Source of the DNA: Treponemataceae bacterium
Lineage (GTDB): Bacteria > Spirochaetota > Spirochaetia > Treponematales > Rectinemataceae
Length of the DNA: 64,000 bases
Direction: 5' to 3'
Assembly: GCA_963678065.2 (NCBI GenBank)
Contig: CAXXVZ010000004.1
Location: 224,001-288,000, forward strand
Shown: piece after piece, positions 27,001 to 64,000 of the stretch
Layout of the letters: every line of letters begins with the position of its first letter
Numbering within the stretch: the first letter of the stretch is position 1
Position numbers: made by a program

Positions 27001-30000
27001 CGTGGCCGCGTCCATAGGCCCTCCTCCTCAATAGAATAAGGCGGATATGAAAAATGCGTTCATGAAGGTCGACGAAAGCAGGTTCATCCGCGCCATCCCC
27101 CGGTAATCGGCCGCGCGCGGGTCGCGGAAGACTCGTATCGTCCAGAGGGCGAGATAGGCGACAAGAGGCAGCTGGGATACGAAATAGAGCGCCGCCTTCA
27201 GGACCGAAGCCATCGCATACATGTAATATGCCATAAAGAGAACCGTCGCCACGGCGAGGAATATCCATCCGAAGATGAAAGTTCCCCTGATTCCGAGGAG
27301 CATGCTCATCGTCCTGTCCCCGCGCGCCGCGTCTTCTTTGTGCTGGTATACCTGAGTGAGGGGATAGGCCGCGAGGAGGAAGACCGAGATGGCGCCTGCG
27401 CCGAGCCAGAATCCCCGCTCTGCGGTCGGAAGACGGCCGCCTCCGACCCAGGCGGTGAGGACATAGACGAAGAGACCCTGGGCCAGGCCGACGAAGATCC
27501 AGCTGGCCACGGCGTAGCGCTTCCATCTCGTCTTGTCCCAGCTGTAGAGCTTGGAACCGACTCCATAAAGGAAACAGGCCAGAGCGAGCCAAGGACTCAG
27601 AATGAAGCCGAGGGCGATTCCCAGCGCGTCGAGCCCGAGAGACCAGTGGAGCAGCTCGCGCGTAGGCATGGGAGGATGCTCCACTCCGCCGATAGGCCCG
27701 GTATCCCTGTCGTAGTACGAATTGAATGAGTTGCTCGCCGTATAGAGGCAGAGATGGAGGATCACGAAGAGCAGAGCGCAGGGGAAGAAAGCCGGTGAGG
27801 TCACCGCGCCGAGGCCGAAAAAGAAGGCGGGGGCGAGGAAGAAGGAAAAGGGAAAGCGCAAGAGGATGAAGGTCTCGCGGCTCGGCATCGTGACTGGATT
27901 ATAGTCTCCGCCCCGACTGCGGGCAACGCCCCTTCCTTCGGTCAGCTTTCTGGTTGAGGCAACACGGCGCGGCCTGCGCCGCCCAATTTCCGGAGGATGT
28001 CGCCGGAAGGTTCAGATCTTCCGGGCGTACTCTTTTAAAAGGGCGGCATATATGCGGTAGTTTTCCAGACTGACATCGGGCGGCGTCTGATGGTCGCAGG
28101 AAGGTATGAACCCGCCGGAGCGCATCGCCGGCAGAAGCCTCTCGAACTCGTCGCGCATCGCGCCTTCACCCGACTTCATCACCCGCTTGTCGAATCCTCC
28201 GATAAACAAAAAATGTGGGTGCGCCTTCCGGAGCTCCGCGACATCGACGCCCGACTGCCGTTCCAGGGGCAGGATTCCGTCGACGCCGAGAGCCTCGAAC
28301 CAGGGTATGACGGGGCGGACATCGCCGTCCGAATCGACGAAAACCTTTATTCCGCGCGCGTGGAGGGCCGGAACGAGGACACGGTAAAAGGGCGCGAGAA
28401 ATTCCTCGAAGGCTGCGGGCGAGAGCATAGGCCCCAAGTTGTAGGACAGATCCTCGGCCAGGGTGACGAAATCGGGAACCGCGACGCCGCAGAACTCGTC
28501 CAGGATTTTCAGGTTGAATTCGAGCAATCGACTGTTCATCTCGTTCATGAGTCCGGGCTCGTCGTAGAAGGCGAGCAGATGATTCTCGATGCCGAGAAGC
28601 TCCCGCGGATGCCAGAAAAACCCCTCGAAACTCGCCCAGACGACAAGATCGCCGCGCTCCTGCGCTTCGCGCCAGCCGGCCACGCGGGCCTTGTCGAAAC
28701 GATCGATCCTGTACAGCTCCGGAAGCAATGCCCGGTATTCTTGCGCGCTCCGGACAATGGCGGCGCCGTGGGTCGCGGGTTTCGGACATCCGGGGCCCAG
28801 TGCCTCGATCCAGTATTGGCGGTGCTGGTCGAGACCGAATTCCGAAAAGAGGGCGCCAGGGACCGAGGAGGGCACAGAGAGTCCCTCGGAATTCCAGCGC
28901 TGAAGAGTCGATGTCCACCAGGAGGCCCATTCGATGACAGGCAGTCGATCCGGTCGGCCAAATCCCAAGACGGTGCAAAAACGTTCGCGCGTGTTCATGG
29001 CTTGACAGTGTAGAAAGAGGATGTCTCAATATCAACGCATTATTTTGCAAATAATAAGGCTATTTTTGCATGAGATCGATTTCGCTGCCCGAACACCGTT
29101 TCCCGACGATGAGAACCATCGGGCTCGCCGTCCAGCATTTCCCCTCGTACATCCACACCGAGCCCGAGGGGCCACACAGACACGAACATCTCGAAATGTT
29201 CTGCGTCGTCGCGGGGAATGCGCGAAGCGTGGTGGACGGACATCCCTTCGTCGAGTTCCCCGGCTCGGTGGTCATCCTGCCCTTCGGCGACTCTCACGAG
29301 CTTCTGACAGGCCCAGAAGGAGTCGAAGTCATCAATGTCTACCTGGACCTGAGGCGTTTCGTCCCGCCGGCCTTCCCTCCCGAAATCGAAAGCCTGATCG
29401 CACCCCTTTTGCCCACTGGCCTCGCTTTCCGGCACCGGATGAATGAAAGGATTCTGGTCCTGCCCGAAAATCCCGAGCGCATCCTCGGCCTTTTGTCCAC
29501 CCTCGTCGAGGAACAGGACAGAGCGGAGGCTGTCGGGCGGGAAGAGTGCATGACGGCAGTCTTTTCGCTTTTCCTGCTGGAATTGGCCCGCGGTGTGTCG
29601 AAGATGGCGAAAGAGGGAACCTTCGGCATTTCCTCTCCCGCCACTTTGCGAGCGGGCTGCGCCAGCCCGGCGGAGCGGATGAGGATACGCCTGGATTTCC
29701 AGCCCGAGCGCGATGTCGATGTGGCGCACTCCGCACAGGAGCTCGGAATATCTGCCGCGGGGCTGTGCAGATCCTTCCGCTCACTCACGGGGCGGACGAT
29801 CCTCGAATACCTGCATCGCAGACGGATCGAGCGAAGTCTTCGCCTTTTGCGAACATCGGAGAGAAAAATCGCCGACATAGCTTTCGAGACGGGTTTCAGG
29901 GATCTATCGTTTTTCAACAGGAAATTCAGGGATATTGTCGGGATTTCCCCGAGGGATTACCGGAAATCCGCGCACCGTCCGCGCCCGGGATCTCCCGGAT

Positions 30001-63000: not shown

Positions 63001-64000
63001 GCCGACCCTCTCTATGAAGGCGCCCAGCTCATCGGGATACAGGCCCATCCACATGAAGGTGTTCTCGCTGCCGATGATGCGCCAGAGCTGCTCGTGACCC
63101 TCGCAGATCGAGCCGTAGACGGGGAAATCGGGATGAATGCTCTTGACGGTGTCGATCCAGGCGGGGGAATTGCGGGTGATGACGTCGCCCACGCCGGCGA
63201 GCTGGTTGTCGCCGGCACAGAAGTAGCGCCTGTCGTCCCAGGGATCGTCGAACTGGAAGGCCTCCATCTTCTCGATCGAGTCCGTGCCGAAGGACTCGAA
63301 GTAGGGCATCTGCGTGCCGAGCTTCTTGCGGATGACGGCCTCGTACCCGGTCCTGAGGATGATGTCGTCCTCGTGCTCGGAGAGGATTTCGAAGGGTTTG
63401 ATGTGCGGGTCCATGTTCGGGGTCGTGGATACCCAGTCGAGGTCGTAGTAGCGGTAGACGTCCACGTCGTCCGCGAGCCCGAGCTCCTTTCTCCATCGCT
63501 GGATGAAGGTCGTCCAGAAAAAATCGCTCACGGGAACCCTGTCCGCCTCTTCGTGGCGCAGGGTCGCGTTCATCCTTTCGAGCTTCTGCAGGCACTTCTC
63601 GGTTCTCTTCATCGCGTTTCGTCCTTATTCTTCGCCATTCTTCGCCGCACGCGCGTTCATCCCCGCGCGCTCAGTCCTGGTGAAAGACTTCTTCCATGGT
63701 GGACCACCATTCGCCCTCGGCCCTGTTCGCGACAGGCTCCTGCATCGGCATCATGATGTCCCACCATTCCTGTGTTTTTTTGTCGGCGGCCATTCTGGCC
63801 ATATCGGCGGCGAAATCGCTGCCCGTGTACTCGAAATACGCGAAGAGCGTGCCGTCTTTGTGGTATATGGAATAATTTTTGATATTGCAGGCGCTGATCA
63901 TGGCGGCGACCTCGGGCCACACCGAAGCGTGAAATTTCTTGTATTTCTCCAGTACACCGGGCTTTATACCAATTATCTGACCGTAGCGAACCATGGCGAC

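What a model noticed while it worked through the whole genome (the two positions that open the first line are those of the whole stretch)
28012..63994. 36 MtaA/CmuA-like zinc methyltransferases sit in sugar-uptake loci and share one corrinoid relay
The genome has 36 divergent URO-D-family paralogs but no tetrapyrrole pathway, so none is HemE. They keep an MtaA-type HxC/HxD metal motif, cluster in carbohydrate uptake and breakdown loci (fucosidase, rhamnose, hexuronate), and a full relay is present: corrinoid proteins g02953 and g04312, activator g02954, corrinoid:THF methyltransferase g02797, MTHFR, FolD, Fhs. Likely role: cobalamin-dependent O-demethylation of methylated sugars.
Evidence so far: 36 genes, median pairwise identity 26.5%; HxC 20 and HxD 11 of 36. 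25 of 36 within 3 genes of a carbohydrate gene versus 33% of all genes and 2/25-9/24 for four control enzyme families; 30 of 36 within 5 genes of a transporter versus 46%. Four tested paralogs hit MtaA/CmuA models, none HemE, at E 1e-6; best PDB hit is MtaA. 28 matches in G026, 0-7 in four other relatives.
(Added by a program. Inside this text positions count along the whole contig: contig position 224,001 is position 1 of the stretch shown here. "Call 12" and the like, gene names such as g00115 and contig names such as C1 are that model's own, and its searches are not shown. The text may have been shortened before it was handed on; [...] marks where a part breaks off. The agent that wrote the report below was given it as the finding of a first reader that could run no searches.)

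Follow-up and report, generated by a model that had tools for sequence, protein, structure and literature searches.

The report
B12-dependent sugar demethylase family, shared relay
A sugar-scavenging bacterium carries about 45 very different copies of one enzyme fold, most of them beside sugar importers, which likely strip methyl groups from imported sugars without oxygen and pass them through two shared vitamin-B12 carrier proteins to folate, a predicted and untested route for a step that is still unexplained in anaerobes.

Summary
Confirmed and larger than reported: 34 Pfam URO-D genes plus 11 more distant ones (45 loci). None is HemE, and HemB and HemC are absent. 33 of 45 lie within five genes of a sugar-type ABC or TRAP permease (background 30%; no genome shift reached 33). 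The genome has two stand-alone corrinoid proteins, one activator (RACo) and one corrinoid:folate methyltransferase. Among 151 genomes of the class, all 56 with five or more URO-D matches have RACo; none of 72 without URO-D does. Orthologs of window gene 62329-63612 sit beside fucose mutarotases or fucosidases in 26 of 39 loci, which points to O-methyl-fucose. New here: the folate methyltransferase shares an operon with a divergent MetF and a bifurcating-type EtfBA, and 45 of 45 longer MetF homologs are Etf fusions. Corrections: only 4 of 44 keep MtaA's His-Cys-Cys site, so 'MtaA-like zinc' overstates; the fold is as close to HemE; about a quarter are not in sugar loci; the expansion is class-wide. 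No substrate is shown. The scan noted both ideas before on other genomes. Nine literature searches found no corrinoid sugar demethylase.

The parts
28012..28998 (-). UroD-superfamily paralog, D-S-D...D-H motif, not in a sugar operon (upstream of UbiA/MenA-family and cytochrome bd genes); start codon uncertain
   Evidence: PF01208 E 2e-11; no NCBIfam hit; motif; orthologs in 3 of 150 relatives
29070..30011 (+). AraC-family regulator divergent from the 28012 paralog
   Evidence: Pfam HTH_18, Cupin_2
35647..36282 (-). Stand-alone corrinoid (B12 methyl-carrier) protein, one of two in the genome
   Evidence: PF02310 + PF02607; TIGR02370 180 bits; DxHxxG invariant in 21 homologs; genome count
36457..38325 (+). 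RACo, ATP-dependent reductive activator of corrinoid proteins; only copy
   Evidence: PF14574, PF17651, Fer2; single copy
38348..39721 (+). PocR-sensor AraC regulator, part of the conserved core module
   Evidence: PF10114 + HTH_18; homolog in 12 of 18 RACo loci of relatives
39718..40842 (+). CobW-like metallochaperone GTPase of the core module
   Evidence: PF02492; homolog in 6 of 18 RACo loci
56091..57287 (-). Monosaccharide-type (CUT2) ABC binding protein
   Evidence: PF13407; PDB hits are sugar/polyol-binding proteins
57417..59580 (-). Two CUT2 ABC permeases
   Evidence: PF02653 twice
59580..61085 (-). CUT2 ABC ATPase
   Evidence: PF00005 twice
61082..62329 (-). UroD-superfamily paralog, H-S-C...H motif; candidate O-methyl-fucose:corrinoid methyltransferase
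   Evidence: PF01208; MtaA-type models 47 bits against HemE 25; ortholog in 11 of 39 related loci
62329..63612 (-). UroD-superfamily paralog, H-G-C...D-H motif invariant in orthologs; best-anchored candidate O-methyl-fucose demethylase
   Evidence: PF01208; D230, H269, C271, H352 in 35 of 35 orthologs; model pLDDT 89, UroD/MtaA barrel; neighbours
63671..63994 (-). L-fucose mutarotase (RhaM/YiiL family), first gene of the operon
   Evidence: PF05336; PDB 7byu L-fucose mutarotase 116 bits against 35 for L-rhamnose mutarotase

Best explanation
The genome encodes about 45 deeply divergent UroD-fold proteins, most of them in operons with sugar importers, that likely act as substrate-specific methyltransferases (MT1) which would move a methyl group from an imported O-methyl sugar onto one of two shared corrinoid proteins. 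Shown: the genes, their contexts, the single RACo, the single stand-alone corrinoid:tetrahydrofolate methyltransferase (MT2), and co-occurrence of the family with RACo. Inferred steps: (1) an ABC or TRAP system imports the methylated sugar; (2) the MT1 activates the ether oxygen, probably at a His/Cys-or-Asp/His metal site, and Co(I) takes the methyl group, freeing a sugar for the neighbouring kinases, isomerases and aldolases; (3) RACo re-reduces oxidised cobalt; (4) MT2 (C4:68964-69986) makes methyl-THF; (5) with no acetyl-CoA synthase, methyl-THF is either used by MetH or oxidised to formate through a divergent MetF, FolD and Fhs; (6) that MetF likely works as a complex with the EtfBA encoded beside it, which would drive the uphill oxidation by electron confurcation, as lactate dehydrogenase-EtfAB does. 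For the window operon 56091-63994 the predicted substrate is an O-methyl-L-fucose. A minority of paralogs probably serve other methyl donors, and two without metal ligands may be non-catalytic partners.
For: MtaA/MtbA/CmuA models beat HemE in all 35 of 46 ORFs with a hit. No HemB or HemC and no RQAGR motif in 44 proteins (motif read). 34 of 44 have HxC or HxD at MtaA's zinc position, only 4 His-Cys-Cys; PMC10418091 (parts 1-3 of 6 read) states that loss of these cysteines marks O- rather than S-methyltransferases. Co-occurrence in 151 genomes of the class: RACo in 56 of 56 with five or more URO-D matches, 13 of 23 with one to four, 0 of 72 with none. Only 13 of the 69 RACo genomes have a strong acetyl-CoA synthase match, so the Wood-Ljungdahl activator does not explain it. 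Second phylum: RACo in 36 of 39 genomes with an ortholog of 62329-63612, 23 of 24 among Acidobacteria, against 32 of 101 in a class sample. Physical links: a paralog directly behind the second corrinoid gene (L030); a corrinoid gene before an ortholog in L064; a 457-aa paralog's ortholog in 11 of 18 RACo loci (loci chosen partly for that closeness); DUF1638 near the window cluster. Sugar context: (the 21-member core family ranks first, tied with DHDPS-like aldolases, among non-transporter families of 39 families with 8 or more members). Fucose: mutarotase in 19, GH29 in 8, GH95 in 4, any in 26 of 39 loci (28 counting overlapped hits; Pfam check), 0 of 18 control loci. MetF-Etf: operon kept in 7 of 8 loci read, joined to RACo or corrinoid genes in 6 of 8; 45 of 45 longer homologs are Etf fusions, 13 with EtfB-type and 32 with EtfA-type domains, one also with MT2; EtfB scores 205-232 bits to five bifurcating Etfs and at most 108 to the others.
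Against: No activity, substrate or binding is shown. All NCBIfam scores are below cut-off (best 179 against 235) and 11 of 46 ORFs have no hit. Fold and profile do not separate HemE from MtaA. Sugar enzyme families are enriched to a similar degree (GFO 12 of 19, SDR 14 of 25, FGGY 12 of 22, DHDPS 11 of 17), so context cannot tell demethylation from other sugar chemistry, and sugar-type ABC systems also carry polyols, cyclitols and nucleosides. About 11 of 45 lack a sugar context. Only 1 of 45 lies next to a corrinoid gene. Kin are not independent, so the co-occurrence counts overstate. The divergent MetF was found in only 11 of 151 genomes, so most relatives dispose of the methyl group otherwise. 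In 6 of 8 relatives scanned a cobalamin riboswitch precedes the corrinoid gene; such switches usually repress when B12 is present (recalled), which is not yet explained.
Confidence: 0.58

Rival explanations
1. The proteins are corrinoid-dependent methyltransferases, but the donors are mostly not sugar methyl ethers: methyl-inositols, methyl glycosides, N- or S-methyl solutes, or methoxy-aromatics released from plant polymers and imported by sugar-type transporters.
For: Known UroD-fold MT1s act on aryl ethers, halomethanes and methyl-selenide (PMC13222342 passages; PMC10418091). Some paralogs sit with peptide ABC, TctABC, aminotransferases or CoA-transferases. Four have His-Cys-Cys.
Against: Orthologs of the window gene track fucose mutarotase and fucosidases across three phyla. 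Other loci carry KDPG aldolase, PfkB and FGGY kinases, GH29, GH31.
Confidence: 0.24
2. Most paralogs are B12-independent sugar enzymes (decarboxylases, epimerases, hydrolases) on the UroD barrel, and only the few beside corrinoid genes are methyltransferases.
For: Only 2 corrinoid proteins for 45 genes. Third-ligand His aligns with HemE's His. Motifs vary widely and two lack ligands. Enrichment equals that of ordinary sugar enzymes.
Against: No genome of 151 has five or more matches without RACo. RACo follows one single subfamily into Acidobacteria, 23 of 24 against 32 of 101. Many MT1 per carrier is known: 20 CdmB paralogs in A. dehalogenans.
Confidence: 0.14
3. The expansion is an artefact of contamination or recent duplication, or the genes are HemE copies.
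For: Contamination estimate 6.7%.
Against: Spread over all five contigs, GC3 like the genome, deep branches; 18 of 151 genomes have 30 or more candidates; HemB, HemC and HemE motifs missing.
Confidence: 0.02

Closest known systems
Corrinoid-dependent O-demethylase and dehalogenase systems with UroD-superfamily MT1 (OdmB, VdmB, MtvB, MtoB, CdmB; PMC13222342 passages, PMC10418091 parts 1-3)
   Same: Same four parts: UroD-fold MT1, stand-alone corrinoid protein, RACo activator, corrinoid:THF MT2; many paralogs per genome (20 in A. dehalogenans).
   Different: Known substrates are aryl methyl ethers and halomethanes in acetogens and organohalide respirers. Here the MT1 genes are scattered in sugar-import operons away from the carrier, the host lacks acetyl-CoA synthase, and similarity to CdmB is remote (67.5 bits).
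MtaA/MtbA methylcobamide:CoM methyltransferases (PDB 4ay7) and type 1 mlp clusters (PMC10418091)
   Same: Same barrel (Z 26.4); His-x-Cys position kept in 19 of 44; best NCBIfam models.
   Different: Complete His-Cys-Cys in only 4 of 44; no score reaches a cut-off; no two-Mlp plus corrinoid plus RACo cluster in this genome; an MT2 for folate is present.
P450 6-O-methyl-galactose demethylases (PMC6292453 passages)
   Same: Remove a methyl ether from a monosaccharide so that it can be catabolised.
   Different: Need O2 and release formaldehyde; unrelated fold. PMC12316285 (passages) says the anaerobic route is not elucidated.
Lactate dehydrogenase-EtfAB (LctBCD, 7qh2) and caffeyl-CoA reductase-Etf (6fah); bifurcating MetFV-MvhD-HdrABC
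   Same: EtfB is closest to these bifurcating Etfs; MetF fold confirmed for the partner.
   Different: The partner is a divergent MetF, not an acyl-CoA or lactate dehydrogenase; the survey PMC6085437 (passages) lists Fix, Bcd, Car and Ldh as Etf partners and MetF only with Hdr.

Membership tests
UroD superfamily (PF01208) | Profile match and (beta/alpha)8 UroD barrel | tested here: met
   36 matches over cut-off; model of 62329-63612 matches UroD/MtaA at Z 26-29; 11 further loci only by own profile
HemE (TIGR01464) | Score over cut-off; RQAGR motif; upstream HemB/HemC | tested here: not met
   Best 100 bits against 303; motif in 0 of 44; HemB and HemC absent
MtaA/CmuA family (TIGR01463, NF004889) | Score over curated cut-off | tested here: not met
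   Best 179 against 235 and 168 against 244
MtaA/CmuA family (TIGR01463, NF004889) | His-x-Cys...Cys zinc site | tested here: not met
   Complete in 4 of 44; HxC 19, HxD 15
Corrinoid O-demethylase systems (Odm/Vdm/Mtv) | Corrinoid protein, activator and corrinoid:THF MT2 encoded in the genome | tested here: met
Corrinoid O-demethylase systems (Odm/Vdm/Mtv) | MT1 clustered with corrinoid protein and MT2 | tested here: not met
   1 of 45 beside a corrinoid gene, none beside MT2; clustering seen in relatives
Corrinoid O-demethylase systems (Odm/Vdm/Mtv) | Methyl transfer from an ether to Co(I) corrinoid protein | not testable with these tools
   Needs enzyme assay
Type 1 mlp gene clusters | Two or more His-Cys-Cys Mlps with corrinoid protein and RACo in one co-directional cluster | tested here: not met
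   No URO-D gene within 6 kb of the RACo/corrinoid pair in the window
Electron-bifurcating Etf complexes | EtfB closer to bifurcating than to classical Etfs; partner flavoenzyme linked by operon or fusion | tested here: met
Electron-bifurcating Etf complexes | Two FADs and ferredoxin-dependent coupling | not testable with these tools
   Needs purified complex

The most novel reading that the evidence does not exclude
Anaerobic sugar degraders of several phyla carry a large, unannotated library of B12-dependent sugar O-demethylases, one per kind of methylated sugar (2-O-methyl-fucose, 4-O-methyl-glucuronate, methyl-inositols and others), all feeding one or two carriers; in some, the methyl group is then oxidised by a new electron-confurcating MetF-EtfBA complex. 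This would be the missing anaerobic counterpart of the P450 sugar demethylases and a new member of the short list of bifurcating enzymes.
Probability: 0.4. Interest if true: 0.88.

Novelty: new variant of a known kind. Interest (0 to 1): 0.72.

Why it matters
Methyl ethers shield sugars in pectin (2-O-methyl-fucose and -xylose of rhamnogalacturonan II, PMC12168206 passages), agar and xylan. The described enzymes that remove them need oxygen, and a 2025 paper (PMC12316285) says the anaerobic mechanism is still to be discovered. This genome supplies named candidates, a specific substrate guess and the whole carrier chain, so the question can be tested with five purified proteins. Thousands of proteins now labelled 'uroporphyrinogen decarboxylase' (7,826 hits at E 1e-40 among 7,998 scored for one window gene) would be re-annotated. 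The MetF-Etf module offers a testable answer to how non-acetogens oxidise methyl-THF uphill.

Tried and rejected
HemE, contamination and recent duplication: rejected. Fold and PDB profile searches do not separate HemE from MtaA and were given no weight for function. Fusion search for the 62329-63612 family found 2 long proteins, none with a B12 domain; weak evidence. MttB family and acetyl-CoA synthase: not found. A shared regulator motif upstream of the dispersed core genes of this genome: not found; the motif that emerged in relatives is a cobalamin riboswitch. No riboswitch in the window. RNA-library contigs of two lake runs cover parts of the fucose operon at 97-99% identity, but contigs do not show transcription; not used. 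The frameshift in the L020 paralog could not be checked against reads. Literature searches (corrinoid and methylated sugars; MetF with Etf) listed no description; the library lacks most subscription journals and no supplements were opened. My gene calls come from a simple codon model, so starts and a few genes are uncertain; one of nine MetF rows (L105) was dropped from the alignment.
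Full report
What was checked. The genome (5.27 Mb, 5 contigs, 99.9% complete, 6.7% contamination) is probably a spirochaete: the closest relatives of a window gene are mostly Spirochaetia records at 71-81% identity. PF01208 gives 36 matches, equal to 34 genes. Iterating a profile of them over all open frames gives 46 ORFs at 45 loci. They lie on all five contigs, have genome-like GC3 and form deep lineages; median identity is 26% among the 375 of 946 pairs that align. The window holds three of them, the corrinoid protein, RACo, a PocR/AraC regulator and a CobW-like GTPase.

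Family placement. In NCBIfam 35 of 46 ORFs have a hit, and in each an MtaA, MtbA or CmuA model ranks first; HemE appears lower for 13; no score reaches a cut-off. HemB and HemC are absent and no protein has HemE's RQAGR motif. Structure does not decide: the family profile ties HemE and MtaA, and an AlphaFold model of 62329-63612 (pLDDT 89) scores Z 29.1 to HemE and 26.4 to MtaA. The characterised methyltransferase CdmB is likewise closest to human UroD and has no zinc (PMC13222342, passages). At MtaA's zinc position 19 of 44 have HxC and 15 HxD, but only 4 have the third cysteine; 14 have His there. PMC10418091 (parts 1-3 of 6 read) gives His-Cys-Cys as the mark of S/Se-methyltransferases and its loss as the mark of O-methyltransferases. 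So 'MtaA-like zinc methyltransferases' should read 'UroD-fold, probably O-directed, metal not established'.

Sugar context. Neighbours within four genes were scanned with Pfam (257 proteins outside the window). With transporter families mapped genome-wide, 33 of 45 loci lie within five genes of a sugar-type ABC permease or DctM, against 30% of other genes; no circular shift of more than 30 genes reached 33 (maximum 32). 27 of 45 share a co-directional run with such a gene, against 20%. Among 39 BLAST families of eight or more members, the 21-member core ranks just below the transporter subunits (0.71 in-run), tied with DHDPS-like aldolases and above GFO, FGGY and SDR. This shows the family behaves like sugar enzymes; it does not show which chemistry. 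About 11 of 45 have other contexts (peptide ABC, TctABC, CoA-transferases, the gene at 28012).

Test of corrinoid dependence. Among 151 genomes of the class, 79 have URO-D matches and 69 have RACo; all 69 are among the 79. RACo is in 56 of 56 genomes with five or more matches, 13 of 23 with one to four (four of the ten exceptions have a best match at the level of true HemE, E 1e-88 or better), and 0 of 72 with none. Five genomes with 57-74 candidates have 1-5 corrinoid cap domains. Strong acetyl-CoA synthase matches occur in only 13 of the 69. For one subfamily, 36 of 39 genomes with an ortholog have RACo, 23 of 24 among Acidobacteria, against 32 of 101 in a class sample. Kin are not independent, so these are patterns, not p-values. 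In 18 RACo loci of relatives (chosen partly because a URO-D match lay close) a corrinoid gene is in 17, PocR/AraC in 12, the ortholog of this genome's 457-aa paralog in 11 and CobW-like in 6: the window holds this core with the 457-aa gene moved elsewhere.

Substrate of the window operon. The run 63994 to 56091 is mutarotase, two paralogs and a monosaccharide ABC importer. The mutarotase is of the L-fucose type (check prompted by scan note e1-4458779). Orthologs of 62329-63612 in Spirochaetota, Acidobacteriota and a planctomycete have the mutarotase in 19, GH29 in 8 and GH95 in 4 of 39 loci, any of these in 26 (Pfam confirmed 9 mutarotases, 11 GH29 and 3 GH95 tested), against 0 of 18 control loci. 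One has L-fucose isomerase and one a corrinoid gene directly upstream. This genome has fucose isomerase 25 kb beyond the window and a second three-paralog locus with a GH29. O-methyl-L-fucose is therefore the best guess; 2-O-methyl-fucose is a known part of rhamnogalacturonan II (PMC12168206, passages). Loci with TRAP, KDPG aldolase and PfkB kinases fit 4-O-methyl-glucuronate (inference).

Fate of the methyl group. The MT2 (AcsE-like) heads an operon MT2, divergent MetF (fold confirmed), EtfB, EtfA, PocR/AraC at C4:68964-74218. FolD, Fhs, MetH and a second MetF are present; acetyl-CoA synthase and MttB are not. The divergent MetF is in 11 of 151 genomes, all with RACo. Of 8 loci read, 7 keep EtfBA beside it and 6 join it to RACo or the corrinoid gene. 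One relative fuses MetF to EtfB, and all 45 longer homologs found are Etf fusions. EtfB is closest to five bifurcating Etfs. I infer a confurcating methyl-THF dehydrogenase; electron flow to menaquinone and the cytochrome bd in the window is the alternative. B12 supply is likely by salvage: cobS and a riboswitch-led cobA-cbiF-cbiG-cbiH-btu-like run.

Comparison and novelty. The architecture is that of known corrinoid O-demethylases, and many paralogs per genome are known in acetogens (41 methyltransferases in E. maltosivorans, PMC9303578 passage). Sugars as donors are not described in what I searched; the known sugar demethylases are P450s (PMC6292453, passages), and PMC12316285 (passages) calls the anaerobic route unexplained. 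MetF with Etf was not found in two searches or in passages of PMC6085437 and PMC5736913. Subscription papers and supplements were not seen. The scan's own notes hold the sugar-demethylase idea for at least 34 other genomes and the MetF-Etf idea once; these are unchecked and not independent support.

Verdict. Sugar O-demethylation as the main role is likely but unproven (0.58). New variant of a known kind; interest 0.72.

Noticed in passing
L074:9965-15216 (G000:C4:68964-74218): Operon MT2 - divergent MetF - EtfB - EtfA - PocR/AraC; MetF-Etf fusions in 45 of 45 longer homologs; candidate electron-confurcating methyl-THF dehydrogenase.
   Followed up: yes
L020:2380-10399: cbiH, cbiG, cbiF, cobA and a BtuCDF-like importer behind a cobalamin riboswitch, in a genome without HemB or HemC; just upstream a URO-D paralog interrupted by a stop and frame change after its HxC motif (pseudogene or assembly error).
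   Followed up: partly
L077, L084, L090, L094, L107, L110: A cobalamin riboswitch precedes the corrinoid-protein gene in 6 of 8 relatives scanned, but not in this genome; the direction of control is unknown.
   Followed up: partly
L011:9290-10660: 457-aa URO-D paralog lacking the metal His, with a C-terminal thioredoxin-like CxxC domain; its ortholog follows the corrinoid gene in 11 of 18 RACo loci, so it may be a core relay subunit rather than a substrate enzyme.
   Followed up: partly
L018:9318-10613 and L004:8141-9427: Two very divergent paralogs without metal ligands and without Pfam hit, each in a fucose-linked locus; possible non-catalytic partners.
   Followed up: partly
window 22766-27888: Cytochrome bd subunits (subunit II fused to a rubredoxin-like domain), a UbiA/MenA prenyltransferase and an FAD oxidoreductase directly downstream of the paralog at 28012, in a genome that cannot make haem.
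   Followed up: no
window 40925-48524: GH3, two putative esterases and a CUT1 importer next to the RACo operon.
   Followed up: no
L055, L057, L058: Acidobacterial orthologs of 62329-63612 are followed by a sugar-binding protein, GH127 and a RuBisCO-like protein, which recalls apiose and aceric acid use from rhamnogalacturonan II (recalled, not tested).
   Followed up: no
L075:8744-10594: A 617-aa protein with only the homocysteine- and folate-binding halves of MetH, besides a full MetH; it could take methyl groups via a stand-alone corrinoid protein.
   Followed up: no
P0001: An 844-aa protein with AraC, sugar-binding and URO-D domains, 72% identical to window 62329-63612.
   Followed up: no
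whole genome: About 160 CUT1-type permease genes and 81 binding proteins: an extreme sugar-transporter load.
   Followed up: no
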